In this document: positions 5,437 through 36,400 of the stretch, piece after piece | Numbering within the stretch: the first letter of the stretch is position 1 | Layout of the letters: each line of letters opens with the position of its first letter | Source of the DNA: Candidatus Poseidoniaceae archaeon | GTDB lineage: Archaea; Thermoplasmatota; Poseidoniia; Poseidoniales; Poseidoniaceae | Direction: 5' to 3' | DNA length: 64,000 nt | Assembly (NCBI GenBank): GCA_949373075.1 | Contig: CASIBX010000040.1 | Coordinates: forward strand, 6,686-70,685 | Translations under genes and position numbers: made by a program | Notes under the pieces: generated by a model | Told to the model about the DNA's origin: nothing | The model's database searches: none | Seen by the model: only the letters and a program-made list of their open reading frames with translations

Positions 5437-6795
5437 ATGCGGTTCGCCTCAATCATGGCATTCAAGCGCGTGCTAATTGCGAACCGCGGTGAAATCGCAT
5501 TAAGAATTCTTAGAACCCTTCGCGACATGGGTATTGAAGTAGCAATAATTCACGGCAGGGAAGACCGATTATCTCTGCCAGTGAGGTTTGCAGATATCGC
5601 TTATCCTATAATGCGCTCCAATCCACTGGATTCTTATCTGGACATCGAGGCGGTAGTTAAGGCCGCTAAAGATTTGAATTGTGATGCAGTTCACCCAGGA
5701 TATGGATTTCTTGCAGAGAATGCCAAGTTTGTTAAGAGGCTGGAAGAAGAAGGAATAACCTTCATTGGACCCACTGCGGATGTAATCACATTACTGGGAG
5801 ATAAAATTGAAGCAAGGGCTGCAATGGAGGCTGCTGGCCTGCCTACTGCAAAAGGAAGTAGTGAGCCAATATCATCTGCTGATGTCGCTAGTTCACTCGC
5901 CGATGAAATCGGTTATCCTGTAATTATCAAAGCCGCTGCTGGTGGCGGAGGAATCGGAATGCAGATAGTCAACAAAGCCGATGAATTTGAGAGTGCTCTC
6001 AAATTATGTCAAAGTCGTGCTAAGTCTGCATTTGGCGATAGCAGAGTTTTCGTTGAGAAATACATCGAAGGAGCTCAACACGTCGAATTCCAAGTTTTAG
6101 GAGATGGCAAGAAAGCCATTCACTTTGGAGAGCGATTTTGTTCTATTCAGAGGCGTCATCAAAAGTTGGTAGAGGAAGGACCATGGCTTAGTGATGAAAA
6201 ACGTGCAGAGATTGGTGCATTGGTTTGTTCAGGGGCCGAGTCCGTGGGTTACAAAGGTCTTGCAACATTTGAATTCTTGAGAGATAGTAATGGTGACTTT
6301 TACTTCCTAGAGGTTAACCCCCGAGTTCAAGTCGAACATACTGTTACAGAATTAATCACTGGCTACAACTTAGTTGAGTTGGGAATTAGAGTTGCCCAAG
6401 GGGAAGAACTTCCTCTTACTCAAGATGATGTAGTTATCAGAGGCCATGCCATTCAGTGCCGCCTAAATGCAGAAGACACAACGAATTTCATACCTTCACC
6501 TGGGCGCCTTTGGGAATGCCATTTCCCTTCTGGATTTGGAATACGTTGCGATACTCATGCTCATCCTGGTTACGAAATGCCGGGTTGCTTCGATAGTTTG
6601 CTAGCGAAATTACTAGCTTGGGGACCAGATCGTGAATCTGCGATTAAAAGAATGCGTACTGCTCTAGATGAAACGATAATCACTGGAGTAGACCACCTTA
6701 TTCCATTACACCGCAGAATAATGGATGAAGAGGATTTCTTGGCAGGAGATATCACAATTTCATATATCGATGAACACGCCCATCTCTTGGGATGA
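5437..6795 (+). CDS. accC: biotin carboxylase (acetyl-CoA carboxylase or pyruvate carboxylase A subunit type)
   Basis: KRVLIANRGEIALRI N-terminus, ATP-grasp glycine loop KAAAGGGGIGM, EVNPRVQVEHTVTE motif. Alternative start MAFKRVLIANRGE at 5455. Confidence 0.9.
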   Translation: MRFASIMAFKRVLIANRGEIALRILRTLRDMGIEVAIIHGREDRLSLPVRFADIAYPIMRSNPLDSYLDIEAVVKAAKDLNCDAVHPGYGFLAENAKFVKRLEEEGITFIGPTADVITLLGDKIEARAAMEAAGLPTAKGSSEPISSADVASSLADEIGYPVIIKAAAGGGGIGMQIVNKADEFESALKLCQSRAKSAFGDSRVFVEKYIEGAQHVEFQVLGDGKKAIHFGERFCSIQRRHQKLVEEGPWLSDEKRAEIGALVCSGAESVGYKGLATFEFLRDSNGDFYFLEVNPRVQVEHTVTELITGYNLVELGIRVAQGEELPLTQDDVVIRGHAIQCRLNAEDTTNFIPSPGRLWECHFPSGFGIRCDTHAHPGYEMPGCFDSLLAKLLAWGPDRESAIKRMRTALDETIITGVDHLIPLHRRIMDEEDFLAGDITISYIDEHAHLLG

Positions 6796-10852: not shown

Positions 10853-10946
10853 TGTACTGAGGGGGTTGGTATCTCCTCCTTCAATCCATTTACGAATGTC
10901 CCAATCCGTGTGAGATTTGAAGAGGTATAGGTTCTGCCAACTGAGT

Positions 10947-11612
10947 GTGTCCGGAATTTGTGTCGCTTTAGTTAGTGGGGGAATCGATTCTCCAGTTGCT
11001 GTAGCGAGGATGCTAGTAAAGGGTTGGAAAGTGTTTCCTTTACATGCATCCCAAGAGCCGGTGACAGGTCCTGCGGCAGAATTGAAAACCATTGCACTAC
11101 TACGTCATTTACTAGAAGATAAGGGCACAGTAGGTGATGCTGCAAGAGCCAATCTTTCGCGGGAACTTATTGTAGTCCCAGTTGCTGAAAAGTTAGCACT
11201 TTTCACTAAGAAATGGAATCATTCAGAATATTTCATTCACATGAAAAGACTATTCAATTCAATCGCAACGATAAGGGGAAATGAAGTTGAAGCAACCCAT
11301 GTCCTGACAGGTGAAAACTTAGGCCAAGTTTCCAGTCAAACTTTAGGGAATCTAGGCGGAATCGAGATCGCCACTCCATTACTTCCTTTGCGTCCATTAT
11401 TAGCATTCGATAAAGTTACGATTATGACTATGGCAAGGCGACTTGGGACACTTGAAATCAGTGAAGGTCCAGAAGTCTGCGATGCGTTGGGTCCAAGTAA
11501 ACCTACAACTGTAGCAAATAAGGAATGGTTGGAAAGTTCGGAAGATAGAGCTGGTGGCTTGCAGTCACTCGCCGAGAATTGTTTTTCCAAACTGAAAGTC
11601 GTGCAATTATGA
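10947..11612 (+). CDS. ThiI-like PP-loop ATPase (sulfurtransferase core) without THUMP/NFLD domains
   Basis: PP-loop VALVSGGIDSPVA, then LTGENLGQVSSQTLGNL and PLRPLLAFDKVTIMTMARRLGT as in the ThiI adenylation domain. Start uncertain: GTG at 10947 or TTG at 10917. Confidence 0.65.
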   Translation: MSGICVALVSGGIDSPVAVARMLVKGWKVFPLHASQEPVTGPAAELKTIALLRHLLEDKGTVGDAARANLSRELIVVPVAEKLALFTKKWNHSEYFIHMKRLFNSIATIRGNEVEATHVLTGENLGQVSSQTLGNLGGIEIATPLLPLRPLLAFDKVTIMTMARRLGTLEISEGPEVCDALGPSKPTTVANKEWLESSEDRAGGLQSLAENCFSKLKVVQL

Positions 11613-11646: not shown

Positions 11647-11712
11647 TAACTGACAAGTTCCCGTCGATATTTTATGCCTGACTTGTGTGGAGGGAGAGAG
11701 AGGGTGCCACCT

Positions 11713-20964: not shown

Positions 20965-20985
20965 CACCTACCCTAAGGGTAGGTG
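20965..20985 (+). promoter_or_regulatory. perfect 9-bp-arm palindrome/hairpin overlapping the fabI Shine-Dalgarno sequence
   Basis: CACCTACCC-TAA-GGGTAGGTG. The right arm contains AGGTG, ending 6 nt before the fabI ATG (20992). Confidence 0.45.
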
Positions 20986-20991
20986 CTAATT

Positions 20992-21786
20992 ATGCTAAAT
21001 TTACAAGGTAAAGTTGCATTTGTTTTCGGTGTTGCCAGTGAAGACTCAATCGCTTGGGCGATTTGTCAAAGTCTAGCTGATGCTGGGGTGACTTTGTATC
21101 TCGGTTATCAGAAGAGATTCATGTCTCGTGTTTTCCAATTAAAGGACAAACTTCCTGCTATTGCAGGGTTCTACCCTCTTGATGTTGCTACCGATGCAGA
21201 CACCAAGGAATTCTTCGATGCTTTCAGTGCAGAAAACCCTAACGTCAAGGCAGATATTTTGATTCATGCTATTGGCTTCGCACCTCGCGAATGCTTCGAC
21301 AGGCCTATTCTGTTCGTCGATGACGATAAAATCAACACAGCATTCACTATTTCAGCCAACTCTTTGCAACGCTGCCTAAAGTTTGCATTGCCTTATCTGA
21401 ATGAAGGCTCCTCCACAATCACGCTGACCTATGCTGCATCAACACGGCATGTTCCTTCTTACGGAATAATGAGTATGGCTAAGGCTGCTCTTGAGTGCTG
21501 GACAAGAGAATTAGCATGCCACCTTGGGCCGGAAGGCCATCGCGTTAATGCTATTTCAAGCGGGCCAATTCGCACTATTGCGGCTAGCGGCATTCCTGGA
21601 TTTGATAATATTCTCGACCATGTTGCGGCCAATTCACCATTACGCAGAAATGTTACACAATCCGATGTCGCTGGTTGTTCGACATGGCTTGCAAGCCCTC
21701 TTTCAGCAGGAGTTACGGGCCAGTGCATCTATGTCGACGCTGGTTATTCGATTACAATGGTTCCTTCAAGCATAATGGGTGAGTGA
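20992..21786 (+). CDS. fabI: enoyl-[acyl-carrier-protein] reductase (NADH), FabI
   Basis: LQGKVAFVFGVASEDSIAWAI N-terminus, catalytic Y-x6-K (YGIMSMAK), ISSGPIRT motif. The stop TGA (21784..21786) overlaps GTG at 21783 of the next gene. Confidence 0.9.
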   Translation: MLNLQGKVAFVFGVASEDSIAWAICQSLADAGVTLYLGYQKRFMSRVFQLKDKLPAIAGFYPLDVATDADTKEFFDAFSAENPNVKADILIHAIGFAPRECFDRPILFVDDDKINTAFTISANSLQRCLKFALPYLNEGSSTITLTYAASTRHVPSYGIMSMAKAALECWTRELACHLGPEGHRVNAISSGPIRTIAASGIPGFDNILDHVAANSPLRRNVTQSDVAGCSTWLASPLSAGVTGQCIYVDAGYSITMVPSSIMGE

Positions 21787-21791
21787 ATCCT

Positions 21792-24700
21792 ATGACAATA
21801 ACAACTGCAGATGGAAAGCCGTGTGATGGACTAGAGCAGGCCCCGTTTGAGCCAATTGCAGTAATTGGAATGGCAGCTCTAATGCCAGATGCAACTTCAA
21901 TTGAGCAGTTTTGGCAGAATATTATCGATGCACATGTTTCCATCAAAGAGGTCACTAAAGACAGATGGGACCCTGATATTTACTGGGATGAAGGCTCACC
22001 TGGTAATATCGCTGAGGGTAAAACATATTCCAAAATCGGAGGATTCGTAGAAGGATATGAGTTTGATTGGAGGCGATGGAGACAACCCCCGGGAACGCTC
22101 CCTCAGATTGACCCGTGCCAACTTTGGGCGGTTACAGTTTCTGCAGACGCTATTGAGCATGCAGGATATGGTGAAGGCGGAAAAACCCTAGACCGATCTA
22201 GAACAGGTGTAATTTTTGCAAATGCCTTAGGTGGTGAAAACCGTTCAGAATCGAATCTTCGCGTATTCAGTGCTGAGATGAGGAAAATAGCAATCGATAA
22301 CGGAGTTACTCCTGAGCAAGCCGACTCCATGGTTGAGACTATTTGCGAAGGAAAACCACGAATTGATGAAGATACAATGCCTGGAGAATTGGCGAATGTA
22401 GTAAGTGGAAGAGTTGCAAATCTTCTAGACTTGCAAGGTCCCAATTATTCTACAGATGCAGCATGTGCTTCCTCGATGGCCGCTTTACTCGATGCCTGCC
22501 GTCTTTTGCAGACAAGGCAAGTCGATACAATGCTCGCCGGAGCAACAGACCGTTGCATGGAAGCCCCGACATATGCTAAATTCAGTGCCATTGGAGCACT
22601 ATCTCCTACTCACTCGACACCTTTCGATGCACGGGCCAATGGATTCGTTATGGGCGAAGGCGCTGGCGTGTTACTGCTCAAGAGACTGTCAGATGCAATC
22701 CGTGATGGCGATGATGTCAAGGCGGTAGTTCGTGGGGTGGGGGGCTCTTCAGATGGTAGAGGCAAAGGAATAACTGCGCCAAGCCAGAGGGGGCAAGTTC
22801 AAGCGGTTAGCAGAGCATATTCACAAGCAGGATATGCCCCTTCTACTGTTGAGTTAGTCGAGGCACACGGAACCTCAACCAAAGTAGGCGATGCTACTGA
22901 ATTATCTACACTCTCACTTCTTTGGAATGATTTAGATGGCGGCGACCATATCGCAGTGGGCTCAGTAAAGAGTCAAATTGGCCACTTGAAAGCAGCAGCA
23001 GGTATTGCTGGAATTATGAAAGCATGCAATGCTGTTTATCACAACACTATCCCTCCAAGTGCAGGATTCCAAACACCTAATCCCACCGTTGAATGGAATG
23101 AAATTCCATTCTTTGTGCCAACAAAAGCTCGTGATTGGCCTGAGCCAAAATCTCACCCTCGCCGTGCAGGAGTTTCTGCATTTGGGTTTGGAGGGACTAA
23201 TTTCCACGTTGCAATCGAAGGTTACGTCCCCGAATTCCATGCCGAATTGGTATCTCACTGGGATGGAAGATGGGAAGCATATGCTGGATATGACAAGCCA
23301 TCTTCGGATAAGGCGACAATGACGCATGAACAGTTGAAAGCCATAGAAGGCGGATTGCTACTATTGTCAGGAGACTCTGTCGAGGCAGTGCGAACTAAGT
23401 TGGCAGCAGTTTCTTTCCAAGACTCTAATTTTGATGATGACCCTAGTGGAATTAGACTATCGTTCACTTTACCCGATGCATGGTCCTTTAGCCCATCTGA
23501 TTCCGTCCGCATGGCAATCTCAGCAACTAATTGGGCCGAATTCAACAAGAGAACAGAACTCGCATTGAAAGCGATGGATGACAAGGCTAAATGGGGCTTC
23601 TTAATGAGCCAGGGGATTATGATTAGCGATGATCCTGCATTACCCTCTGAAGCCAAAGTCGCCCACATGTATCCTGGCCAAGGTAGCCAATATGTTGGTA
23701 TGACGCATGACCTAAATCACCGCTTCACAGGCGTGGGCGAAGTTTGGGAGAAGGCCGACATTACCATGGTAGAGGTTTTGGATGGAGAAACCCTCTCGTC
23801 CTTTGTTCTACGTGATAATCTGTCACAAGAAGAAAAGGAAGAAGCAGAATTCAAACTCAAACAAACTGAATACACTCAACCTGCAATGTTAACCGCAGAT
23901 TTAGCCATAGAAGCGGCGCTTAATGCCCATGGGCACAAGCCCGATATGGTTGCAGGGCATAGTTTAGGAGAATATGCTGCATTGATGAGTGCAGGCATTC
24001 TAGATATGGATGGGGCACTAAGAGCAGCCGCTGCCCGTGGTACTGAGATGGGTAGTGTAGAAATCGACGATAAAGGACTAATGGCTAGCGTAACCGCTCC
24101 TTATACTCGAATAGCCGAGATTATTGAAGAGATAGACGGATACGTCATAGCAGCTAACAAAAACTCTCCTAAAATGACCGTAATAGCGGGTGAAACCGCT
24201 CCTGTCAAGGAGGCTATGTCTAAGTTTCAATCCGAAGGTTTCCAAAGTGTAGAACTGGCGACCAGTCACGCATTCCATTCTAGAATCGTAGCCCCTGCAA
24301 ATGAACCTCTTCGCAGGTTCCTCGAAGGACTTGAAATTAGATGGCCAAGCATTCCAATCACAAGCAACGTAGATGGTGGATGGTATCCAATGGATGATGG
24401 CAGCGATTCTAAGACAGCTGTGTTGTCAAAATTAGCACCGCAGATGGCGTCTAGTGTTGAATGGACTAAGCAGATAAATTCAATGTATGAAGCAGGAGCC
24501 AGAATCTTTGTCGAAGTTGGCCCTAAACGCGCATTGACCGTTTTCGCTTCACAAATTTTGGAAGGAAAAGTAGCCCTTCCAATTATGACAAATCACCCCA
24601 AGGCAGGAGGAATCGCAACTTTCCTGTCAGCATTAGGTACTCTCGCACTAGCGGGTAGAACTCCTGAGTGGCCAGACCGTAACAGTCCTCAACTTACCGA

Positions 24701-27700
24701 GGCATTCCGAGCGGGTCCGGTCGAAGCCCAAGGCGTATCTCAGCAACCGGCTACTCCGCTCAAAGAACGTAGCAGGCCACTGCCTTCCAAAGGCGGAGAC
24801 GTAATCACCAAGACTGTAGTACAATCTAAAGAGGCATTCAGCGACCCTGATGCCGCTAAAATTAACTTGGTAGGGGAACTAATTGCTGCACAAACTGGCT
24901 ACCCTGCTAAATTCTGCCAAGGAAATGTCGACATGCGAGATGTATTGGGAATGAACGACTCTCAAATACAAATTGTAGTGTCCAGCGTACATGCTCGTTG
25001 TAGCACAGACCCTGATTGGGATGTCACAGTAGCAAAAACTCCAGGGGATATCACTCGATGGATAACCGCTGCACCCATACCCGGCAGTAAAACTAGGGCT
25101 ACAAAATTCGATGACCGTGATGATGACCCGTATGTGATAACAGGAATTTCCTTAGGATTACCTGGCGGAGAAAGGGTATTCGACAAAGGTAACTTTGAGA
25201 AATTAATTCGTGGAGAAACCTGTATTAGCGAAGTTACTGATGATTACAAACAGAGATTGCTTGACAAAAATATTGTTCGCCTGATCAAAGGCAGAGATGG
25301 CAGCGTAGGTATGGACGCTGCGACAGAGTTTGGCGACATCCCTCAACTAGCTGGCCTCAAATCCGCATTTGATCCAACCGAGGAATTCGGTATTGATGCA
25401 AAGATTGCTGCTGCTTGGGACATGGCGACACAGTTAGCATGTGCTGCAGGATTGATTGCTCTCAAAGATGCAGGTATTCCTCTAACTCCTGTTGAACAGG
25501 TAGGTAAAGGCGGTTTGCGATTGATTCGCTCATGGCAGATGCCTTCAATGTACAGAGATAGAACTGGAATTGTCTTTTCATCATGTTTCGCAGGCCATCA
25601 AATGGCGGCCAAACATGCTAAGTTAAACGGTGATGATGGTGAAGGCAGATTTGACCGCCGATATCTATTCCAAATCCTCAATATGGGGCATTCACAATTC
25701 GCTCAACACGTGGGTATTCGTGGCCCTAATACTACCATTAACTTGGCATGTGCTTCTGCTACAGCAGCATTTGGTGTGGCCGAGGATTGGCTAGCAGCAG
25801 ACCGTTGTGACCGCGTAGTCATCATCTCTGCAGATGATGTGACTGGAGACGATATGTGGGAATGGATTGGCTCTGGTTTTGCCTCGAGTGGCGCTGCAGC
25901 TACCAGTAACGTCATCGAAGAAACAGCACTACCTTTCGATAAACGCCGAAACGGTTTGATTCTTGGAATGGGAGCCGCTGCATTCGTTGTAGAAAGGAAA
26001 TCACATTCAGATGCAAGGGGAGTTCAGCCTATGGCAGAGTTACTTGGTACTAGAATCGCTAACTCGGCCTTCCATGGAACCAGGCTTGATGTAGACCATG
26101 TCGCTTCTACTGTTGACGGATTCATTGGAGAAATGGAATCCCGCTGGGGCCTTGACCGTCACAAGATGGCTTCCGAAACAGTGTTCTTTTCCCATGAAAC
26201 ATTCACTCCTGCAAGAGGAGGCTCAGCCCAAGCCGAAGTTAAGGCACTGAGAGATACCTTCGGTGCGAGTACAGATTCGATAGTGATTGCCAATACCAAA
26301 GGTTTCACCGGACACCCAATGGGTGTCGGAATTGAAGATGCTGCAATGTTTTACGGTTTGATGACAGGTAAGATTCCACCAATCGCTAATCACAAGGAAG
26401 TAGACCCTGAATTAGGTAATCTGAAATTATCTAAGGGCGGGGCATATCCTGAACTGAAATATGGAATGCGATTTGCTGCAGGTTTTGGCAGCCAAATTGG
26501 GTTATCATTAGTTCGTAAGTGTGAATACACTGGTGACAGAATAAATCGGCAGAAATTGTTGACTTGGAATCAATCAATTGCAGGAACTCCAAACATCGAA
26601 TTACGTGTTCTTCAAAACAAACTAGTAGCATATGTTGATGGAGACAACAACCTCCATGGCGGTATTCAAGGAGAAGAATATGCGGTTCCTAATAATGTAC
26701 AACCAATCGCAGCTCCAGTCATTGCAGACGTAACTCCTGAACCGGTAGCCGTACCTGAACCAGTTGCAATCGTTGCGAAAGTTCCCCCACAGGAAGTTTC
26801 AGGTGATCTTACTTCAATCGTAATCGATGTAGTTGTAAACCACACAGGCTATCCTGCAGACTTCGTTGAACTCGACCAAGACCTCGAAGGTGAGTTGGGT
26901 ATTGATACGGTAAAACAGGCTGAAATAATGGCGGACATACGCACTAAATTTGCATTACCTGTAGACGAAGATTTCGTATTATCCGATTATCCAACCCTCA
27001 CTCATATGATTGGCTATATCCACAAAATGAAGGGAGGTAGTGCTCCAACTCCTACAGCGCCAACTCCAGTAGTTGAAACTGAAGTAAGCCAACCAGCGGA
27101 AGTAGTAGCCAAGGTAGAGCCTACTGTAATTCCAAAGACAGTAGTTTCGGCAGATACCTCCGATATCCAGCCCAAGTTGATTGGGGTTGTTGTGAAGCAT
27201 ACAGGTTATCCTGAAGACTTCATTGAAATGGACCAAGACCTTGAGGGAGAACTTGGAATCGATACGGTCAAACAGGCTGAAATCATGGGCGATGTAAGGG
27301 AGATTTTCTCATTACCTGTTGACGAGGACTTCGTACTTTCAGACCATCCTACGCTGAATCATTTCGTGGCATATATTCAGAAAATGACCGGCGCAACCGC
27401 CTCTTCACCCGCTCCAGTAGAGCCAACTCCTCTATCTGTACCTGCCTCTAAACCCGAGGCAGAACCAGTGAGGGAGCAAATTGTAGTAAGTGATAATGGA
27501 GAGATTCAGCCCAAACTAATCGCTGTAGTTGTCAAGCATACGGGATATCCTGATGATTTTATCGAGATGGACCAAGACCTTGAGGGGGAACTTGGAATCG
27601 ATACGGTCAAGCAGGCTGAAATTATGGGCGACGTCAGAGAGATTTTCTCTTTGCCTGTGGATGAAGATTTCGTCCTTTCAGACCATCCTACACTGAATCA

Positions 27701-30416
27701 TTTCGTTGCATATATTCAGAAGATGAAAGGGGGAAGTTCACCAGAACCAGTTCCAACACCCTCTCCAATTAGTGACGTAGCATCTGTTCCATCACCTATT
27801 GCGCCTGCACTAACACCTACACGTTCAACCACTAGGCGATGGCAAGTTGAGGTCGAGCCTTGCCCAGCAGTTGCAGAAGGATTGCCAATTGGTGGAACGA
27901 TTGTTCTTACACAAGATAGTTGGGGAGTCGCAGATGCATTAGCTCTCAGACTAAGCGAAAAAGGACTTTCAGTCGCTAAAATCGGCTTTGAGTTCGGTGC
28001 AAAGTCGGTAACTGAGCAAGAAGAATTGTCAGGCCACACCTTCAGAGCAGACCCTAGTAGCGAAGAACAAATTTCAGAAATCTGTTCACGAATAACAGGT
28101 GTTGCAGGAGTCATTCACTTAGCACCATTATCTCTTACAGGAAGTTCATGGGAATCTAAAGGTCCTTCCAACCAAGTAACTCTTGCAGCACACTCTTGGT
28201 TTGGCTTGCTCAAAGGACTCGACTCACAATTAGCAGTGATATCCTCTGGTATTGTTGGAAGCGTTACCGCTATGGATGGAAGACATGGAAATCGCGGAGA
28301 GAGATTCAATTCCCTCTCCTGCGCAGCCAGTGGCGTTACCAAATCATACGCGTTTGAGCGTGAAAACCTAAGATGTCGTGCTTTAGACTTGCATCCTGAA
28401 TTAATCATCGATGCAGAGGCTGCTGCTGAAATAATCGAAAATGACATGTTCAGTTTAGGGGGCGATGTAGAAGTTGGAATCGACAGAGACGGTAGACGAT
28501 GGACATTGGTCTGTTTTGCCGAAGACATTGTCGATGAAGTGAAATCTCTCGAATCAGATGACATTTGGGTTGTCAGTGGTGGAGGTTCCGGAGTAACAGC
28601 GGCTTCGATAATTGGAGTCTCAAATGCTAGCCAAGGAGCAGGAGCAACATTCTTGCTTCTTGGAAGAAGTAAACTTGAGGACGAAACTTCGACTTGGCTT
28701 GATTGGAGTGAAGAGCAACTAACCTCCAGAAAGATGGAACTTCGAGAGTCTCTGATGTCTGATTCAGAAAGTGGGAAAATCACAATGGTCGAATGGAATA
28801 ATGCCTGGACTAAATTAACTAGAAGCATGGATATTTACCGTACTATTAGCGTGATAAAGTCGAGTGGTAACCATGCAGAGTACCATTCCGCAGACGTTAC
28901 CGACTCTGATGCAATAATTGCAGCAGTTGGCGGAAGGAGCGTCACAGGAATCGTCCATGGCGCAGGACTTGAAGAATCTAAATTAGTCGCTGACAAAGAA
29001 TGGAAAACATTTGACTTGATTGTACGTGTGAAAGTAGATGGCTGGAAGGCGTTAATCTCAGCAGTTGGAGATGACTTACGATTTGCATGTGCATTCACAA
29101 GTGTTGCCGGACGCTTTGGAAATGGTGGCCAGACAGATTACGCCGCTGCAAATTCAATTCTAGATGCAGAGATGGCTCGATTAACTGCTAGTGGAGATTG
29201 CCGAGCAGTCGCCATTGGATGGACAGGTTGGAGAGATGTTGGTATGGCAACACGAGGTTCAATTGAAGCAGTATTCGAATCAGCGGGAATAGAAACGCTA
29301 GCAGTTGAACAGGGAGTTGAGATATTCGTAGGAGAGGCTCTTGCTGGTGGAAAGAGGAGAGTACTTGGCTGTGGATCTTTAGGTCTAATGGATAGGTTTG
29401 ATTCTTTCAGAGAAGCTCCGTTGAAATTACCTGCAGAGATGGCAGCATCTATTGCGGACCCTCGTCGTTTCCCTCTAATCGACAAATTAATTTCTCTTGA
29501 TGTTGGAAAGTCTTTGGTTTCACAATGCACACTTTCGACCCAAGACCATCCGTTCTTGATCGACCATTCAATCGATGGAGTGCCATATCATCCTGGAGTA
29601 ATGGCTATGGAGATGTTTGCAGAGAACTCTCTATTGCTATTGCCTGGTCATTGTATTGCCGGATTTGAAGATGTAACATTCGGTCTGCCGATTAAGATAA
29701 TGAAAGGTTCAATGACAGTTCGAGTAGAAGCCAAATTTGAACGGACTGATGGTGATTTAACTTGGGTGAGTTGCCGTTTAGTTTCTGATTTGGTTAACTC
29801 GAAAGGGGAGATATTTGGAGAGCCACGCCTTCATCATGAAGCAAAGGTTAGATTGGTTACTTCAAGTGATGATTTGCTTCCATTCCTTCAGAGTGAGGTT
29901 GATGCTTTACCAACTATTGGTACTCCTGCTGATGGCGAATTATTGCACCATTCAAGTTTCATCTACCTCAGATATTTCCATGGTCCAAGATTCCAATCGC
30001 ACGGCGGAGTTCTTCGTGGAATCGACAATGGCGTTGATGGAATCGCACTGATGAGGCACCAACTTCCAGCAACAGACCAGTTTGCTCAGGAAAGTGAAGG
30101 CGAAGAAATACTGCTAGACGCATTACCTATGCTGATAGAAGCAGGATTCCAAAACGCAGGCTTAGCCGCTATGGAGAGCGACGGTTTCTCCAGTTTACCA
30201 ATCGGAATTGAATGGACCACCATGCTAAGGGTCCCTGAATCTAATGAGAGACTTCGAATGCGTTCAGTGAAGGTCGCTTCTGAAGATGCAGGTGTAACTG
30301 TTCACGATGTCGTAATCGTTGGTGATGATGATGCTCCAGTATTGTCTCTCAAAGGATTGAGACTCAAGGCTATGGGAGAAGTACCTGAAGACCAAAGATT
30401 CACACTCGAGAGGTGA
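21792..30416 (+). CDS. type I PfaA-like polyketide/fatty-acid megasynthase: KS-AT-ACP-like-KS-ACP-ACP-ACP-KR-DH
   Basis: Numbering follows the track ORF (start 21783). KS1: DAACASS (C228), EAHGTST, KSQIGH. AT: GHSLGE (S727) and the malonyl-type HAFH motif. ACP-like domain: LGMNDSQ (about 24855..25080). KS2: LACASAT (C1323), SHETFTP, KGFTGHPMG. Three ACPs: LGIDTVKQAEIM. KR: VVSGGGSGVTA and GQTDYAAAN (Y2453). PS-type DH: HPFLIDHSIDGVPYHPG (H2595). Start is ATG at 21792 or the overlapping GTG at 21783. Confidence 0.9.
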   Translation: MTITTADGKPCDGLEQAPFEPIAVIGMAALMPDATSIEQFWQNIIDAHVSIKEVTKDRWDPDIYWDEGSPGNIAEGKTYSKIGGFVEGYEFDWRRWRQPPGTLPQIDPCQLWAVTVSADAIEHAGYGEGGKTLDRSRTGVIFANALGGENRSESNLRVFSAEMRKIAIDNGVTPEQADSMVETICEGKPRIDEDTMPGELANVVSGRVANLLDLQGPNYSTDAACASSMAALLDACRLLQTRQVDTMLAGATDRCMEAPTYAKFSAIGALSPTHSTPFDARANGFVMGEGAGVLLLKRLSDAIRDGDDVKAVVRGVGGSSDGRGKGITAPSQRGQVQAVSRAYSQAGYAPSTVELVEAHGTSTKVGDATELSTLSLLWNDLDGGDHIAVGSVKSQIGHLKAAAGIAGIMKACNAVYHNTIPPSAGFQTPNPTVEWNEIPFFVPTKARDWPEPKSHPRRAGVSAFGFGGTNFHVAIEGYVPEFHAELVSHWDGRWEAYAGYDKPSSDKATMTHEQLKAIEGGLLLLSGDSVEAVRTKLAAVSFQDSNFDDDPSGIRLSFTLPDAWSFSPSDSVRMAISATNWAEFNKRTELALKAMDDKAKWGFLMSQGIMISDDPALPSEAKVAHMYPGQGSQYVGMTHDLNHRFTGVGEVWEKADITMVEVLDGETLSSFVLRDNLSQEEKEEAEFKLKQTEYTQPAMLTADLAIEAALNAHGHKPDMVAGHSLGEYAALMSAGILDMDGALRAAAARGTEMGSVEIDDKGLMASVTAPYTRIAEIIEEIDGYVIAANKNSPKMTVIAGETAPVKEAMSKFQSEGFQSVELATSHAFHSRIVAPANEPLRRFLEGLEIRWPSIPITSNVDGGWYPMDDGSDSKTAVLSKLAPQMASSVEWTKQINSMYEAGARIFVEVGPKRALTVFASQILEGKVALPIMTNHPKAGGIATFLSALGTLALAGRTPEWPDRNSPQLTEAFRAGPVEAQGVSQQPATPLKERSRPLPSKGGDVITKTVVQSKEAFSDPDAAKINLVGELIAAQTGYPAKFCQGNVDMRDVLGMNDSQIQIVVSSVHARCSTDPDWDVTVAKTPGDITRWITAAPIPGSKTRATKFDDRDDDPYVITGISLGLPGGERVFDKGNFEKLIRGETCISEVTDDYKQRLLDKNIVRLIKGRDGSVGMDAATEFGDIPQLAGLKSAFDPTEEFGIDAKIAAAWDMATQLACAAGLIALKDAGIPLTPVEQVGKGGLRLIRSWQMPSMYRDRTGIVFSSCFAGHQMAAKHAKLNGDDGEGRFDRRYLFQILNMGHSQFAQHVGIRGPNTTINLACASATAAFGVAEDWLAADRCDRVVIISADDVTGDDMWEWIGSGFASSGAAATSNVIEETALPFDKRRNGLILGMGAAAFVVERKSHSDARGVQPMAELLGTRIANSAFHGTRLDVDHVASTVDGFIGEMESRWGLDRHKMASETVFFSHETFTPARGGSAQAEVKALRDTFGASTDSIVIANTKGFTGHPMGVGIEDAAMFYGLMTGKIPPIANHKEVDPELGNLKLSKGGAYPELKYGMRFAAGFGSQIGLSLVRKCEYTGDRINRQKLLTWNQSIAGTPNIELRVLQNKLVAYVDGDNNLHGGIQGEEYAVPNNVQPIAAPVIADVTPEPVAVPEPVAIVAKVPPQEVSGDLTSIVIDVVVNHTGYPADFVELDQDLEGELGIDTVKQAEIMADIRTKFALPVDEDFVLSDYPTLTHMIGYIHKMKGGSAPTPTAPTPVVETEVSQPAEVVAKVEPTVIPKTVVSADTSDIQPKLIGVVVKHTGYPEDFIEMDQDLEGELGIDTVKQAEIMGDVREIFSLPVDEDFVLSDHPTLNHFVAYIQKMTGATASSPAPVEPTPLSVPASKPEAEPVREQIVVSDNGEIQPKLIAVVVKHTGYPDDFIEMDQDLEGELGIDTVKQAEIMGDVREIFSLPVDEDFVLSDHPTLNHFVAYIQKMKGGSSPEPVPTPSPISDVASVPSPIAPALTPTRSTTRRWQVEVEPCPAVAEGLPIGGTIVLTQDSWGVADALALRLSEKGLSVAKIGFEFGAKSVTEQEELSGHTFRADPSSEEQISEICSRITGVAGVIHLAPLSLTGSSWESKGPSNQVTLAAHSWFGLLKGLDSQLAVISSGIVGSVTAMDGRHGNRGERFNSLSCAASGVTKSYAFERENLRCRALDLHPELIIDAEAAAEIIENDMFSLGGDVEVGIDRDGRRWTLVCFAEDIVDEVKSLESDDIWVVSGGGSGVTAASIIGVSNASQGAGATFLLLGRSKLEDETSTWLDWSEEQLTSRKMELRESLMSDSESGKITMVEWNNAWTKLTRSMDIYRTISVIKSSGNHAEYHSADVTDSDAIIAAVGGRSVTGIVHGAGLEESKLVADKEWKTFDLIVRVKVDGWKALISAVGDDLRFACAFTSVAGRFGNGGQTDYAAANSILDAEMARLTASGDCRAVAIGWTGWRDVGMATRGSIEAVFESAGIETLAVEQGVEIFVGEALAGGKRRVLGCGSLGLMDRFDSFREAPLKLPAEMAASIADPRRFPLIDKLISLDVGKSLVSQCTLSTQDHPFLIDHSIDGVPYHPGVMAMEMFAENSLLLLPGHCIAGFEDVTFGLPIKIMKGSMTVRVEAKFERTDGDLTWVSCRLVSDLVNSKGEIFGEPRLHHEAKVRLVTSSDDLLPFLQSEVDALPTIGTPADGELLHHSSFIYLRYFHGPRFQSHGGVLRGIDNGVDGIALMRHQLPATDQFAQESEGEEILLDALPMLIEAGFQNAGLAAMESDGFSSLPIGIEWTTMLRVPESNERLRMRSVKVASEDAGVTVHDVVIVGDDDAPVLSLKGLRLKAMGEVPEDQRFTLER
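26803..27732 (+). repeat. three tandem ACP-domain repeats (coding) separated by Pro/Ala-rich linkers
   Basis: Units are centred on GAT-ACG (Asp-Thr) codons; the ACG codons are at 26907, 27264 and 27603 (spacing 357 and 339 nt). Units 2 and 3 are nearly identical in protein and differ mostly at synonymous sites. Confidence 0.9.
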
Positions 30417-30420
30417 TTGA

Positions 30421-31110
30421 ATGGAAAAGATGGATCCAGTGACGGGTCCACGTATGTTCCTTGCTCGTCGCAAGATTGGTGATTGTATCAGCGTCCTCGC
30501 AGAAACAATCCCTAGGGGTTCACCAAAAAGAATCGCAGACCACAATTCAGGACGACTTCTTCTAGAAGAATGCTTGAGTGAATGGGGAATCCCAATCGAT
30601 TCAATAGAGGTCTTACGCACTGATGAGAGAGCCCCATACCTTTCATGGTTAGATGGTATTTGGAGAAATACTCCCTTGCCAGGGATAAGTATCGGCCATT
30701 CTGGTGAATGGGCTGTATGCGCTCTAATAGAACCTGGATTCTGGGTTGGAATCGATGCTGAGCCTAAGGATAGAGGCATTCAAGAAAATGCATTTGATAT
30801 GATGGCTAAGGGTGAAGAATTAGATTGGTTGAAATCAAATCCAGGGCAAGCAATTCGCATATGGACGGCCAAAGAGGCTGTACAAAAAGCAGAGAGGAGG
30901 GGGATGAACCTCAATCCAAGAGATATTGTTCTTGATAATTACCAAGTTGAATCATTTATCCATGAAGACCAGATGGTTTCAGTTTCATGGCGTAATGCAG
31001 GAGATGACCCTGTGAGTGCAGAAGACGATTTATTGCAACAAACCCGAATTGCTATGCAGTCCGGTGAATCATGGGGCGTTGGTTGTAATACAACCAGAAA
31101 TAATGTTTGA
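30421..31110 (+). CDS. Sfp-type 4'-phosphopantetheinyl transferase
   Basis: ISIGHSGEWAVCAL, WVGIDAEP and IWTAKEAVQKAERRG match the Sfp/PfaE-type PPTase motifs. ATG lies 4 nt after the megasynthase stop and is preceded by GAGAGGTGA. Confidence 0.85.
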   Translation: MEKMDPVTGPRMFLARRKIGDCISVLAETIPRGSPKRIADHNSGRLLLEECLSEWGIPIDSIEVLRTDERAPYLSWLDGIWRNTPLPGISIGHSGEWAVCALIEPGFWVGIDAEPKDRGIQENAFDMMAKGEELDWLKSNPGQAIRIWTAKEAVQKAERRGMNLNPRDIVLDNYQVESFIHEDQMVSVSWRNAGDDPVSAEDDLLQQTRIAMQSGESWGVGCNTTRNNV

Positions 31111-33424: not shown

Positions 33425-36400
33425 TCAGAATCGAGGAGGAGGTCCACCAAGCATGCTGTTCTCATCGATTACGAATCTGTCCGCTCTCACCCTGTTTAGG
33501 TGCTCTACACGCTCTGATTTCCTACGTTTCGAGTTCCTTCTACCGTTAACTGCAAGGAATAATCCTAGAATAAGTGCAAGACTTACTGCTATGATTTCTT
33601 GAATGTGTGGGACATCTTTAGTTTGCTCTAACAGATCATCGAATGTTTCACCATCATCAGAATTGATAGTTTTGATTTTGATGGAAGTAGTCGCCATCGT
33701 AGATTCAGAGCCAGGCTCACTCGCAGATATTCCAGGCGTCTTCGTTCCTTTCGCGGTCATCTGTCCCGAGAAGGCAACTGTTTGAACTCCTTCTCCGGGT
33801 ATCACAAGTATGTGTGAGCGTACTCCAGCATCAATAGAGTTAGTCGATTCCCATACGACTATTACTGCCAATTCATTTTGAATCATATTGGTGATAGTAC
33901 AAGTAAAAGTTAGGCTTGAATCAACCGCTAGATCAACATTGAATTCGTTAGGGTCGCAAGATAGCAACACTTCTGCAGTGTTACGTGTAGGGTCTTCAGG
34001 CCAGTGGTCTGGCAATTCAGCCCCAGGCGAATTATTGTCTCCAAATCCATCGCCATCCCCGTCTTCATGTTGTGTTCTGTGTTCAGGGAAAGCATCTCCA
34101 ATGTTTGACCAACCGTCCAAGTCATTGTCAGGACAACCCAGTAAGTCCAGAGTAGCAGTTCCTGCTGCGGATGAGCATTGGTCCCCATCTGTACCATCTG
34201 CATTGTCACCATAGCCATCTCCATCTGTGTCTAGCCATTGAGTAGGGTCTGCCGGAAGGAAGTCATTATTGTTCGACCATGAATCACCATCGTCATCTAA
34301 ACATCCGATGCTACCGTTAGTGGAGTTTCCTGCAGCTAGCGGACAATTATCGATATTGTCTCCAAATCCATCAGAGTCATTATCTGACCACTCGCTAGTG
34401 TCGGAAGGGAATGCATCTCCAGAATCAGACCATGTGTCACCATCTGCATCTGTACAACCGAATGTATCCGAACTACTGTTTCCAAATTGAGAGGGGCATG
34501 AATCGGGTGTTGTTCCTTCAGCATTATCTCCAAATCCATCATTATCAGTGTCGTTCCATTGTGTGTTGTCTAGTGGGAATGAATCATCTAAGTCAGCCCA
34601 TGAGTCCTGGTCTGCATCAAAACATCCTAAGGAGCCGTTGGTTGAAGTTCCTGCAGTCTCAAAACAATCGTCTTCGACATCATCATATCCGTCCCCATCG
34701 GTATCGAGGTACCTAGTAGGGTCTAGCGGGAAGTCATCGTTCAGGTCAGAATGACCATCGCCATCGGTATCGACACATCCAAGTCGGTCAATTGTTGAAT
34801 TTCCAAATGTGAGTGGGCAATCATCTGCGTTGTTACCTGCAGCATTGTCTCCGTATCCATCACCATCTTGGTCTTCATATTGAGTAGGGTCATTTGGCAG
34901 TGCATCAATCATGTCTGCCCAGCCATCGCCGTCAGCATCCACACAACCTAGCATTCCGCCTTCGGTTGAATTACCCCATATTCCCAAACATGAATCGTGA
35001 TTGTTACCAATTATATTGTCTCCAAATCCGTCTCCATCAGCATCTTGCCATTGGGTAGAATCATTGGTGAAACTATCTTCTGAATCTGCCCAACCATCGC
35101 TATCGAAATCGGGGCAACCAAGAGTTCCATTTTGCCAAGAGTCACCGGCTGTGTTAACACAATCGTCAGCTAGATTGCCGGTTGGCTCGTCTCCAAACCC
35201 ATCGCCATCAGTATCGTTCCACTGTGTTTGGTCTGCAGGGAAGGCATCGTGGTCAACTGTGCGTCCATCTCCGTCTGCATCTAGGCAACCTACTACAATC
35301 CAAGTCGAGTTACCTGCAAAGTTCGGACAATCGTCCTCACTATCTGCAATACCATCACCGTCTGTATCGATAGACTTTGTAGGGTCGTTTGGCCATTGGT
35401 CATTAGAATTTGAAATTCCATCCCCGTCGCTGTCAAGGCATCCTTGCAAATCAATAGTTGAATTGCCCCAAACAGTAGGACAATCATCCCAATTTGTAGC
35501 AGGGTTTGGATTGTCATAATAGGTGTCTCCGTCAGTATCCAGCCATTGGCTTGAATCGTTAACAAGTATGTCGTTTAGGTCGGATTGACTATCACCGTCA
35601 GAGTCAAGACACCCATTTCTGTCAAGTGAAGAATTACCCCAGACCGTTTCACAAGCATCTGCTCCTTGAATTGCAATCCAACCACCATCAGGGTCTGACC
35701 ATGAATCAGAATCAGTATCTGGGCAGCCATAGCGGTCACCGCTGGATGTTCCAGCAACAGAGGTACAGGAATCAGCGTTGACCCCACCAGGGTTATCACC
35801 GAACCCATCACTATCGGAATCTGACCATTGTGTTCCTTCGTTAGGGAAATCATCCCCTACATTGGACCATCCATCTCCATCTCCATCCGGGCATCCGGTT
35901 TGGTCTTGAGTAGATGTTCCTGCTGTATTTGGACAGTCATCAAGAGTGTCAATTATTCCGTCACCATCGGCATCGGCAGACATGTTGATCATGGAATAAG
36001 GAGCATCGATAACCATGGCAAAGGATTGTGGTCCAGTTGGGATATTAGTTCCATTTACGTGAACCTCCCACTGACCTGCCATCGGAGATGAGATAGTTGT
36101 ACCAATCAGGTTGTCAAGATTGTTGCCATATTCGACCCAATTCCCATTAGGGTCTTTTACTGCAAAGTCGATATCGTTAACCAAATTGGTGGATGCAGCA
36201 GGAGTGCTAGCAGGGTCAGTCCATGATACCATTACTTTGAGGTCAGGTGCGCTTGCAGGGACTGTAAATTTCCAACTTCTAGAATCTCCAGTATTAACCG
36301 ATTCATCATCTACCCAAGTGGTATTCACTGCACGGTCAAGGTCGAGAAGTCCCCATCCTTCGTGGTTGTTAGGTGCACTTTCACCAGCACCATTGCTAGA

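What the first reader, a model, noticed from the sequence alone, without database searches (positions are those of the whole stretch)
20965..31110. ACP-dependent type I fatty-acid/polyketide synthase operon (FabI, 2877-aa megasynthase, Sfp-type PPTase) embedded in an archaeal chromosome
Three genes are translationally coupled. The fabI stop overlaps GTG at 21783, and the PPTase ATG sits 4 nt after the megasynthase stop behind GAGAGGTGA. Together they supply KS, malonyl-type AT (HAFH), carrier domains, KR, DH, a trans enoyl reductase and the enzyme that activates carrier domains. That is every activity of a reducing elongation cycle. The same contiguous sequence carries Orc1/Cdc6 (0.5-1.7 kb) and PCNA, fibrillarin, Nop5 and TFS (41.7-44.5 kb) on either side, so the host looks archaeal. 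Archaea build isoprenoid ether lipids and are classically described as lacking ACP and holo-ACP synthase. A complete ACP-based megasynthase with its own PPTase is therefore unexpected. It could make fatty acyl or polyketide chains for bacterial-like or chimeric lipids, or for a secondary metabolite. No thioesterase, reductase or acyltransferase release domain is present, so the product and its off-loading route are open.
Basis: partly seen in the sequence, partly recalled or inferred. Interest (0 to 1): 0.9.

Follow-up and report, generated by a model that had tools for sequence, protein, structure and literature searches.

The report
Archaeal fatty-acid-type megasynthase operon
Marine Group II archaea keep, under strong purifying selection, a three-gene operon (FabI reductase, a 2,874-residue two-ketosynthase megasynthase, and its activating transferase) from a widespread but uncharacterised "Type R" lipid-synthase family, which gives a concrete gene set for testing whether these abundant archaea make fatty-acyl chains.

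Summary
Three tightly coupled + strand genes (FabI 20992-21786, megasynthase 21792-30416, PPTase 30421-31110) sit between archaeal markers (Orc1/Cdc6, TBP, PCNA, fibrillarin, Nop5, TFS). It is not a chimera: 78 Poseidoniales loci, including single-cell genomes and Mb-scale contigs, share the same synteny. dN/dS is 0.016-0.096, similar to TBP.

- The megasynthase is KS1-AT-KS2-ACPx3-KR-DH. A second, FabF-like ketosynthase with an intact Cys-His-His triad was missed.
- The three carrier domains have Thr, not Ser, at the phosphopantetheine position. This holds for all MGII copies and about 95% of the wider family.
- The megasynthase most likely starts at ATG 21792, leaving a 5-nt gap rather than an overlap.

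The architecture plus downstream PPTase matches the uncharacterised "Type R" pfa-like secondary-lipid cluster of Shulse & Allen 2011. The family is widespread in Acidobacteria, Chloroflexi, Actinobacteria and Myxococcota. It also occurs in Heimdall/Asgard archaea and other Thermoplasmatota, often next to acetyl-CoA carboxylase genes.

Most likely it is an iterative reducing FAS-like synthase that builds a reduced acyl chain from malonyl-CoA and releases it in trans. BGC surveys and Villanueva 2017 had already flagged such genes in MGII. Verdict: a new member of a known kind, of moderate-to-good interest.

The parts
20968..20988 (+). Perfect palindrome/hairpin CACCTACCC-TAA-GGGTAGGTG just upstream of the FabI ATG, overlapping the Shine-Dalgarno-like GGTAGGTG. 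Candidate operator or translational hairpin of the operon.
   Evidence: RNA fold -15.5 kcal/mol. The stem sequence is conserved and the loop varies in most MGIIa loci, including the ~65%-identity subclade.
20992..21786 (+). FabI-type enoyl-(ACP) reductase acting in trans. The ORF opens at GTG 20983; the likely start is ATG 20992.
   Evidence: Pfam adh_short_C2 1.6e-66. Best NCBIfam models are all FabI but below equivalog cutoffs (222.8 vs 391). Tyr-x6-Lys (SYGIMSMAK) read. 82-98% aa identity across MGII loci. dN/dS 0.016.
21792..30416 (+). Megasynthase, 2874 aa from ATG 21792 (ORF opens at GTG 21783): KS1-AT-(degenerate ACP-like linker)-KS2-ACPx3-KR-DH.
   Evidence: Best NCBIfam model is TIGR02813 PfaA at 925 bits, below its cutoff of 1010. 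dN/dS 0.048.
21849..23222 (+). KS1, PKS-type ketosynthase (aa 23-480) with DAACASS / EAHGTST / KSQIGH.
   Evidence: Pfam ketoacyl-synt plus Ketoacyl-synt_C. Nearest solved structures are PKS KS-ATs (7zma 7.7e-125, CurL).
23667..24656 (+). Acyltransferase (aa 629-958), malonyl-type: GHSLGE, HAFH.
   Evidence: Pfam Acyl_transf_1 5.8e-34. TIGR00128 FabD 2.2e-56. Motifs read.
25134..26522 (+). KS2, a second, divergent FabF-like ketosynthase (aa ~1118-1580) with an intact Cys / His / Lys-Gly-His. It is the hallmark of the family.
   Evidence: Pfam ketoacyl-synt 1.7e-14 on the excised segment. TIGR03150 FabF 8.4e-37. Residue-level alignment to FabF 9s5h and 2gqd. 540 representative clusters at E<1e-30.
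26835..27722 (+). Three tandem carrier (ACP) domains (aa ~1685-1980). Each reads DLEGELGIDTVKQAEIM, with Thr1709, Thr1828 and Thr1941 (numbered from GTG 21783) at the phosphopantetheine position.
   Evidence: Pfam PP-binding 2.8e-19, 3 stretches. Motif positions. The Thr aligns with the Ser of solved ACPs.
28080..29237 (+). Ketoreductase (aa ~2100-2485; catalytic part 2353-2485, motif SVAGRFGNGGQTDYAAAN).
   Evidence: Pfam KR 2.3e-21 and 7.2e-22 on the excised segment. Nearest solved structures are PKS KRs.
29472..30386 (+). PKS-type double-hotdog dehydratase (aa 2564-2868) with HSIDGVPYHP (HxxxGxxxxP).
   Evidence: Pfam PKS_DH_N 1.7e-07 and PS-DH 4.2e-06. Motif read.
30421..31110 (+). Dedicated Sfp-type 4'-phosphopantetheinyl transferase. 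Its ATG is 4 nt after the megasynthase stop, behind GAGAGGTGA.
   Evidence: Pfam ACPS 1.6e-10, above cutoff. Motifs WVGIDAE and IWTAKEAVQK. About 30% identical to the fused PPTase domain of P0130 and to the stand-alone Polyangiaceae PPTase. dN/dS 0.096.
5437..6795 (+). Biotin carboxylase (AccC-like). Possible malonyl-CoA supply. It is about 14 kb from the operon, so the link is only by analogy with other family loci.
   Evidence: Pfam. NCBIfam AccC models 1e-168, below cutoffs. ACC subunits adjoin the megasynthase in L079, L080 and L084 and in Koribacter (PMC3098273).
10391..10852 (-). YciA-like hotdog acyl-CoA thioesterase (ORF runs to 11092; probable start at the internal Met MEPFST). The only thioesterase candidate in the window; a link to the operon is not shown.
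   Evidence: Pfam 4HBT 1.2e-15. NCBIfam YciA 1.6e-10, below cutoff. Translation.

Best explanation
The locus is a functional, vertically inherited operon of Poseidoniales (Marine Group II) archaea. It encodes an iterative, reducing, type I FAS-like synthase of the uncharacterised 'Type R' pfa-like secondary-lipid family.

Proposed mechanism:
1. The downstream Sfp-type PPTase converts the three tandem carrier domains to their holo form. The attachment would be on the invariant Thr of the LGIDTVKQAE motif (inferred).
2. The single AT loads malonyl units from malonyl-CoA made by acetyl-CoA carboxylase.
3. Two catalytically complete ketosynthases share the condensations: PKS-type KS1 and FabF-like KS2. 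By analogy with the two KSs of PUFA synthases, they probably divide the work by chain length (inferred).
4. KR and DH process each beta-keto group.
5. The translationally coupled FabI reduces the enoyl intermediate in trans. It stands in for the PfaD/NMO-type ER domain that is fused to many family members.

The product is therefore most likely a long, largely saturated acyl chain, possibly keeping some hydroxyl or enoyl groups. No release domain or conserved release gene accompanies the synthase in any lineage examined. Off-loading must therefore be done in trans, by an acyltransferase or thioesterase encoded elsewhere, or by the AT itself (inferred).

Shown: gene order, domain content, intact catalytic motifs, conservation, purifying selection, family membership by architecture.

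Inferred: Thr as attachment site, division of labour between the KSs, nature and fate of the product.
For: - Domains and motifs.
- Tight coupling of the three genes.
- Conserved order (big protein, unk265, TBP, TatD, unk373, FabI, MEGA, PPTase, unk158, M28) in about 65 loci from independent Poseidoniales genomes, including SAGs AG-461-G23, AG-404-K16 and AH-273-F07 and a 1.5-Mb contig.
- The MGIIb locus L067 and the 3-Mb contig L081 keep TatD-FabI-MEGA-PPTase.
- dN/dS against L018: FabI 0.016, MEGA 0.048, PPTase 0.096, compared with TBP 0.034.
- No G+C anomaly.
- The family is large (540 clusters at 50% identity, E<1e-30). Variants carry a fused NMO-type ER and/or a fused PPTase, so ER plus core plus PPTase is the conserved functional unit.
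- FabI is also coupled to the megasynthase in another Thermoplasmatota genome: L084.
- ACC subunits are adjacent in L079, L080 and L084 and in Koribacter (PMC3098273).
- Thr and Ser alternate at the carrier site between close relatives (P0123) and within one protein (P0228).
Against: - No product, release enzyme or acceptor is identified. No thioesterase or acyltransferase is conserved next to the synthase in six non-MGII contexts.
- The carriers lack the canonical Ser, and I found no report of Thr-linked phosphopantetheine. From memory only, Ser-to-Thr mutants of E. coli ACP are poor AcpS substrates. Activation is therefore unproven.
- FabI scores below NCBIfam equivalog cutoffs.
- The identification with Type R rests on architecture and on relatives from the same higher taxa. 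The original Type R proteins were not compared directly.
- That paper calls the second KS a CLF, whereas KS2 here keeps its Cys.
- I found no transcript or protein evidence.
Confidence: 0.65

Rival explanations
1. The synthase makes a partly reduced specialised metabolite rather than a saturated fatty acyl chain. Candidates are a polyol or keto-ol chain like heterocyst-glycolipid aglycones (HglE-type), a polyene like enediyne PKSE products, or an alkyl tail for a resorcinol/pyrone. FabI would then act only in some cycles.
For: The best whole-protein model is PfaA, and the KS1-AT nearest solved relatives are PKSs. The order KS-AT-ACP-KR-DH followed by a PPTase resembles enediyne PKSE (my own knowledge). 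A retracted survey listed T1PKS, HglE-KS and resorcinol clusters in Poseidoniaceae (PMC10434046). No FAS-style thioesterase is present.
Against: An ER (FabI, a fused NMO domain, or an adjacent acyl-CoA dehydrogenase) accompanies the core in every context examined. No type III PKS, glycosyltransferase, enediyne cassette or FabA-type isomerase lies in the conserved neighbourhood. A universal core-genome position with TBP-like purifying selection fits a housekeeping lipid better than a niche metabolite.
Confidence: 0.2
2. The operon is a decaying or repurposed relic. Because the carrier domains have Thr instead of Ser, they cannot be phosphopantetheinylated and the synthase is inactive.
For: The canonical DSL Ser is absent from all three carriers. 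No literature on Thr-linked phosphopantetheine was found.
Against: 8.6-kb ORFs are intact in more than 100 clusters. dN/dS is 0.02-0.05. Thr is invariant in 353/353 and 221/221 MGII motifs and makes up about 95% of motifs across 150 diverged family representatives, so it is selected for, not drifting. A dedicated PPTase is retained or fused throughout the family. All catalytic motifs are intact.
Confidence: 0.03
3. It is a canonical PUFA (EPA/DHA) synthase subunit PfaA.
For: TIGR02813 PfaA is the best NCBIfam model (925 bits) and the ACPs are tandem.
Against: The score is below the curated cutoff of 1010. No pfaB, pfaC (KS-CLF-FabA-type DH) or pfaD is in the window or in the conserved synteny. 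An extra KS is embedded in the protein.
Confidence: 0.02
4. It is an assembly chimera or bacterial contamination joined to archaeal DNA.
For: None beyond the bacterial flavour of the domains. Two loci are filed under bacterial MAG names (L048 'Salipiger', L058 'Rhodobiaceae').
Against: The same junctions with TBP/TatD upstream and M28 peptidase/subtilase downstream recur in about 65 independent assemblies, including single-cell genomes and long-read contigs. The two 'bacterial' loci carry the same archaeal synteny, so they are mis-binned. G+C is uniform.
Confidence: 0.01

Closest known systems
Type R 'secondary lipid' (pfa-like) synthase cluster of Shulse & Allen 2011 (PMC3098273): Koribacter, Solibacter, Elusimicrobium, Roseiflexus
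   Same: One pfaA-like gene with KS-MAT-second KS-like domain-tandem ACPs (3-6)-KR, followed by a PPTase gene. Occasional linkage to acetyl-CoA carboxylase genes. Product unknown. Relatives of the window's KS2 occur in Terriglobales/Acidobacteria and Chloroflexales.
   Different: The host is archaeal; that paper contains no mention of archaea. A FabI gene is translationally coupled upstream. The second KS keeps its catalytic Cys and so is not a CLF in the strict sense. A C-terminal PKS-type DH is present. The original Type R proteins were not compared directly.
PfaA of bacterial PUFA synthases (TIGR02813)
   Same: Order KS-AT-tandem ACPs-KR-PKS-type DH. A dedicated Sfp-type PPTase (PfaE-like). 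A trans ER.
   Different: The score is below the curated cutoff. There is no PfaB, PfaC or PfaD. A second KS is embedded between AT and the ACPs. The ER is FabI-type (SDR) rather than PfaD/NMO-type. The carriers have Thr where PfaA ACPs read LGIDSIKRVEI (the latter from memory).
Enediyne polyketide synthase PKSE (e.g. SgcE, CalE8, DynE8)
   Same: An iterative KS-AT-ACP-KR-DH followed by a PPTase. Release by a discrete hotdog thioesterase. A hotdog thioesterase ORF lies 10 kb away in the window.
   Different: PKSE has a single ACP, a fused PPTase, no second KS and no ER. It sits in an enediyne cassette that is absent here. This comparison rests on recalled architecture and was not tested by phylogeny.
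Bacterial type II FabI / FabF / AcpS-Sfp system
   Same: FabI has the Tyr-x6-Lys signature. KS2 is closest to type II FabF among solved structures.
   Different: The activities are fused into one 2,874-aa polypeptide with tandem in-cis carriers. No free ACP, FabH, FabG or FabZ is seen in the window.

Membership tests
Type R pfa-like secondary-lipid synthase (Shulse & Allen 2011) | Single pfaA homologue with KS-MAT-(CLF/second KS)-ACP(3-6)-KR | tested here: met
   KS1 23-480, AT 629-958, KS2 ~1118-1580, three ACPs 1685-1980, KR ~2100-2485. A DH is also present.
Type R pfa-like secondary-lipid synthase (Shulse & Allen 2011) | PPTase gene immediately downstream | tested here: met
   ACPS-family ORF 30421-31110, 4 nt after the stop. 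Conserved in 63 loci.
Type R pfa-like secondary-lipid synthase (Shulse & Allen 2011) | Second KS-like domain is a chain-length factor (lacks the active-site Cys) | tested here: not met
   KS2 has the Cys, His and Lys..Gly-His aligned with the FabF catalytic residues. The Cys is invariant in 12 diverse family members. The 2011 label 'CLF' may be nominal.
Type R pfa-like secondary-lipid synthase (Shulse & Allen 2011) | Sequence clustering with the type members (Koribacter, Solibacter, Roseiflexus, Elusimicrobium) | tested here: inconclusive
   Those proteins were not available. Profile hits labelled Terriglobales, Acidobacteria and Chloroflexales share 50-57% identity in KS2 with family members. 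The NJ tree has no support values.
PfaA, PUFA synthase (TIGR02813) | Score at or above the curated cutoff | tested here: not met
   925.3 bits against a cutoff of 1010.1.
PfaA, PUFA synthase (TIGR02813) | Partner genes pfaB, pfaC (KS-CLF-FabA-type DH x2) and pfaD | tested here: not met
   None among the window ORFs or in the conserved synteny.
FabI enoyl-ACP reductase | adh_short_C2 fold with the Tyr-x6-Lys catalytic signature | tested here: met
   PF13561 1.6e-66. SYGIMSMAK read.
FabI enoyl-ACP reductase | NCBIfam equivalog cutoff | tested here: not met
   Best model PRK07370 scores 222.8 bits against a cutoff of 391.
Sfp-type 4'-phosphopantetheinyl transferase | ACPS-superfamily domain above cutoff, ~230 aa, motifs G-x-D-x-E and (W/F)-x-x-K-E-(A/S)-x-x-K | tested here: met
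   PF01648 scores 41.4 bits against a cutoff of 25. WVGIDAE and IWTAKEAVQK. Homology to the family's PPTases.
Sfp-type 4'-phosphopantetheinyl transferase | Two-lobed pseudo-dimeric fold | tested here: inconclusive
   Single-sequence AlphaFold model has pLDDT 39. No PDB hit by sequence.
Phosphopantetheine-binding carrier domain (PF00550) | Pfam score above cutoff | tested here: met
   69.6 bits against a cutoff of 20.8, three stretches.
Phosphopantetheine-binding carrier domain (PF00550) | Conserved Ser (DSL) as attachment site | tested here: not met
   Thr in all three domains, aligned to the Ser of PigH and Plasmodium ACP. Thr in 341 of 359 motifs family-wide.
Enediyne PKSE | KS-AT-single ACP-KR-DH-fused PPTase, with an adjacent hotdog TE and enediyne cassette | tested here: not met
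   Three ACPs, an extra KS, a separate PPTase and no cassette genes in the neighbourhood. KS phylogeny against PKSE was not done.

The most novel reading that the evidence does not exclude
This synthase is the de novo source of fatty-acyl chains in Marine Group II archaea. Its relatives would play the same role in Heimdall/Asgard and other Thermoplasmatota archaea. These chains would feed the mixed G3P-based membrane lipids proposed for these lineages. The chains would be built on carrier domains phosphopantetheinylated on threonine, a linkage I could find no report of, installed by a PPTase lineage adapted to it. The archaeal copies fall outside the main bacterial crown in a rough tree. The family could therefore be old in archaea rather than a recent bacterial import.
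Probability: 0.2. Interest if true: 0.85.

Novelty: new member of a known kind. Interest (0 to 1): 0.58.

Why it matters
Marine Group II archaea are the most abundant archaea in surface oceans and remain uncultured. They lack the enzyme that makes the archaeal G1P backbone, and they have been proposed to build mixed membranes (Rinke 2019; Villanueva 2017 as cited in PMC7852524).

This operon gives that proposal a concrete, compact and expressible gene set of three genes (10 kb). The set is universally conserved in MGIIa and is as strongly constrained as TBP. Expressing it would directly test whether these archaea make fatty-acyl chains, and of what kind.

Family members occur in Heimdall/Asgard archaea. 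That makes the family relevant to the lipid-divide and eukaryogenesis debate.

Independently of the host, two features are untested biochemistry in a family that spans many bacterial phyla: the near-universal Thr at the carrier attachment site, and the embedded second ketosynthase.

Tried and rejected
1. Chimera or contamination: rejected by synteny in 78 loci.
2. Canonical PUFA synthase: rejected on the curated score and missing partner genes.
3. Release enzyme among the conserved neighbours: unk158 is a small multi-TM protein with a weak MerT-like hit, unk373 is a signal-peptide/TM-anchored surface protein, and unk265 is acidic and soluble with no family. None is a thioesterase or acyltransferase.
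4. Full-length profile search (alignment A1, 4091 columns): failed inside the tool. Repeated with the KS2 region. That listing favours short fragments, so architectures could not be read from it.
5. The listing of cluster members on 30 representatives: gave organism names for only 8.
6. PPTase fold: the single-sequence AlphaFold model was unusable (pLDDT 39), so no fold search was run. Homologous PPTase sequences could not be submitted under the tool's restrictions.
7. Literature: no paper describing this operon in MGII, none on Thr-linked phosphopantetheine, and none characterising Type R since 2011 in the held library. Villanueva et al. 2017 is not held.
8. The sigma-70 promoter/terminator scanner was not used because the host is archaeal.
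9. The NJ tree has no support values, and one mislabelled 'KS1' tip is a split KS2 hit. It is used only for coarse grouping.
Full report
**Observation**

The window holds three co-directional ORFs at 20983-21786, 21783-30416 and 30421-31110. Pfam assigns the following:
- The first ORF is FabI-type adh_short_C2 (1.6e-66).
- The second contains KS, AT, three PP-binding stretches, KR and a PKS-type DH.
- The third is in the ACPS superfamily (41.4 bits against a cutoff of 25).

The flanking genes are archaeal: Orc1/Cdc6, TBP, PCNA, fibrillarin and Nop5, plus a TFS-like Zn-ribbon ORF. G+C is even across the operon and its flanks.

The database protein identical to the megasynthase is 2874 aa (P0001), and homologues begin MTITT. 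The real start is therefore most likely ATG 21792, five bases after the fabI stop, and not the overlapping GTG. FabI most likely starts at ATG 20992.

**Not a chimera, and not rare**

A scan of one genome per species returned 131 relatives. The 78 loci kept come almost entirely from Poseidoniales (Marine Group II). They include single-cell genomes (AG-461-G23, AG-404-K16, AH-273-F07) and contigs of up to 1.5 Mb.

tblastn of the window's proteins against these loci shows one conserved order in about 65 of them: large protein, unk265, TBP, TatD, unk373, FabI, megasynthase, PPTase, unk158, M28 peptidase, subtilase.
- The single Thalassarchaeaceae (MGIIb) locus, L067, keeps ThiI, large protein, unk265, TBP, TatD, FabI, megasynthase and PPTase, followed by ABC, GT2, PCNA, Nop5 and fibrillarin.
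- A 3-Mb contig carrying the nearest non-MGII relative (P0124, L081) has TatD, FabI, megasynthase, PPTase and M28.
- Two loci filed under bacterial MAG names (L048, L058) carry the same archaeal neighbours, so they are mis-binned.

Against the closest genome (L018, where dS is not saturated), dN/dS is 0.016 for FabI, 0.048 for the megasynthase and 0.096 for the PPTase. TBP gives 0.034 and TatD 0.040.

**Anatomy**

Scanning excised segments shows that the roughly 950 residues left unassigned in the whole-protein scan contain a second ketosynthase. It is closest to type II FabF among solved structures. Its Cys, His and Lys..Gly-His align residue for residue with the FabF catalytic residues.

The domain order is KS1, AT, a short degenerate ACP-like stretch (seen by eye, not significant in Pfam), KS2, three ACPs, KR and DH. 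The other catalytic motifs are intact:
- KS1: DAACASS / EAHGTST / KSQIGH.
- AT: GHSLGE and HAFH.
- KR: S...YAAAN.
- DH: HxxxGxxxxP.
- FabI: Tyr-x6-Lys.
- PPTase: GIDAE and WTAKEAVQK.

**Unexpected carrier chemistry**

All three ACPs read DLEGELGIDTVKQAEIM. A Thr occupies the position that aligns with the phosphopantetheinyl Ser of solved ACPs.
- Thr is found in 353 of 353 such motifs in 120 MGII homologues.
- It is found in 221 of 221 motifs in the MGII loci.
- Among 150 representatives of the wider family, clustered at 50% identity, the same motif has Thr 341 times and Ser 18 times.
- A close relative of the MGIIb copy (P0123) has GELGVDSVKQAEIM, and P0228 mixes Ser- and Thr-type carriers in one protein.

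The two residues therefore look interchangeable. This argues that the Thr hydroxyl is the attachment point, which is an inference. Six phrase variants for Thr-linked phosphopantetheine found no paper in the held library.

**The family**

Searching the KS2 region against 1.84 billion representatives gave 540 clusters at E<1e-30. Many are 2,900-4,000-aa proteins with KS2 in the same relative position. Three variants exist:
- the core alone, as in MGII;
- the core plus a C-terminal PPTase;
- an N-terminal NMO/PfaD-type ER, the core and a PPTase.

The MGII operon is thus a split version of the third variant, with FabI replacing the fused ER. The window PPTase is about 30% identical to the fused PPTase domain of P0130 and to a stand-alone Polyangiaceae PPTase.

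Named members include:
- Archaea: two Asgard archaea (one labelled 'Asgard group', one Heimdallarchaeota), further Heimdallarchaeota fragments, two other Thermoplasmatota, and a fragment labelled Halobacteriales.
- Bacteria: Terriglobales/Acidobacteria, several Chloroflexi orders, many Actinobacteria, Myxococcota, Bradymonadales, Gemmatimonadetes and Gammaproteobacteria.

A rough neighbour-joining tree of KS2 has no support values. In it the Poseidoniia copies form one clade about 55% identical to everything else. The other archaeal copies form several groups outside the main bacterial crown.

**Context elsewhere**
- Heimdallarchaeota contig (L079): BCCP, carboxyltransferase, a FabH-like gene and an Arf/Ras GTPase lie upstream.
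- L080: BioY, biotin carboxylase and BCCP follow the megasynthase directly.
- L084 (Thermoplasmatota): carboxyltransferase, FabI (overlapping) and a megasynthase with fused PPTase.
- L083 (Polyangiaceae): acyl-CoA dehydrogenase, megasynthase and PPTase.
- L082 (Asgard): all activities are fused into one protein.

The recurring partners are an enoyl reductase, a PPTase and acetyl-CoA carboxylase. No thioesterase or acyltransferase recurs. In the window, a biotin carboxylase lies 14 kb upstream and a YciA-like hotdog thioesterase lies 10 kb upstream. Neither link is demonstrated.

**Comparison with what is known**

The best curated model is PfaA, at 925 bits against a cutoff of 1010. The PUFA-synthase partners PfaB, PfaC and PfaD are absent.

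Shulse & Allen 2011 define a 'Type R' secondary-lipid cluster as one pfaA homologue, KS-MAT-CLF-ACP(3-6)-KR, with a downstream PPTase. They found it in Koribacter, Solibacter, Elusimicrobium and Roseiflexus, and its product is uncharacterised. In Koribacter an ACC gene sits between the two genes (PMC3098273). That paper never mentions archaea.

The window's architecture matches Type R, and its relatives occur in the same bacterial orders. The original proteins were not compared directly, and KS2 is not a Cys-less CLF.

For MGII specifically:
- Rinke 2019 and Tully 2019 discuss only fatty-acid degradation and the missing G1P dehydrogenase.
- A global BGC survey ranks T1PKS second among the BGC classes of marine archaeal genomes.
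- A retracted paper listed T1PKS and HglE-KS clusters in Poseidoniaceae.
- A Shark Bay study noted BGCs it considered potentially novel in Heimdallarchaeota and Lokiarchaeota MAGs; a cut-off passage from its KS/C-domain section also mentions similarity to PUFA or antifungal products.

I found no paper that dissects this operon. The one MGII metatranscriptome study I checked (PMC9723583) does not mention this operon, ketoacyl synthases or acyl carrier proteins.

**Verdict**

The claim of unexpectedness is overstated.

The locus is a conserved, selected, archaeal member of a widespread but biochemically unexplored family. Most likely it is an iterative reducing FAS-like synthase that builds a largely saturated acyl chain from malonyl-CoA and releases it in trans. 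The product, the release route and the Thr attachment are inferred, not shown.

Noticed in passing
window 26907-26909, 27264-27266, 27603-27605 (Thr1709/1828/1941 of the ORF from 21783); also P0121-P0270: The carrier domains of this whole megasynthase family have Thr instead of Ser at the phosphopantetheine attachment position (341 Thr against 18 Ser in 150 diverged representatives). Ser and Thr swap between close relatives and within single proteins. I found no literature on such a linkage.
   Followed up: partly
window 20968-20988: A perfect 9-bp palindrome (CACCTACCC-TAA-GGGTAGGTG) lies just upstream of the FabI start and overlaps the SD-like sequence. The stem sequence is conserved and the loop varies across deeply diverged MGIIa subclades. 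Poseidonia-type loci have a different hairpin at the same place.
   Followed up: partly
L048 and L058: Two contigs deposited in bacterial MAGs ('Salipiger bermudensis', 'Rhodobiaceae bacterium') carry the full archaeal MGII synteny (TBP, TatD, FabI, megasynthase). They are evidently mis-binned.
   Followed up: yes
window 50743-54066 (+): A fused isobutyryl-CoA mutase/GTPase IcmF (NCBIfam 1636.8 bits, above the cutoff of 1500). This is a B12-dependent acyl-CoA mutase that could interconvert branched and straight short acyl-CoA starter units.
   Followed up: no
window 10391-11092 (-): A YciA-like hotdog (4HBT) acyl-CoA thioesterase ORF whose 5' end overlaps the ThiI ORF on the other strand. The probable true start is an internal Met. 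It is the same enzyme class as the discrete thioesterases of PUFA and enediyne synthases, but it is 10 kb from the operon.
   Followed up: partly
window 11674-17511 (+), 33425-38119 (-), 56052-63980 (-): Three giant ORFs (1945, 1564 and 2642 aa). The first has no Pfam hit yet is syntenic across MGII. The second carries a subtilase S8 domain. The third was not scanned.
   Followed up: partly
L079:6474-7016 (Heimdallarchaeota contig): An Arf/Ras/Roc-type small GTPase gene lies about 3 kb upstream of the Heimdallarchaeota family member. ACC subunits and a FabH-like gene lie further upstream (about 7-10 kb). This fits a genuine Asgard origin for that copy.
   Followed up: no
one search hits, e.g. 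P0285, P0298, P0322, P0330 (550-900 aa on long contigs): In some bacteria the KS2 hallmark domain appears as a separate protein of about 600-900 aa on long contigs. This suggests split versions of the megasynthase, or gene-calling breaks.
   Followed up: no
window 3022-4824 (+) and 5437-6795 (+): A CysJ-like flavodoxin-FAD-NADPH reductase and an AccC-like biotin carboxylase sit side by side. No BCCP or carboxyltransferase partner was found among the scanned ORFs of the window.
   Followed up: partly
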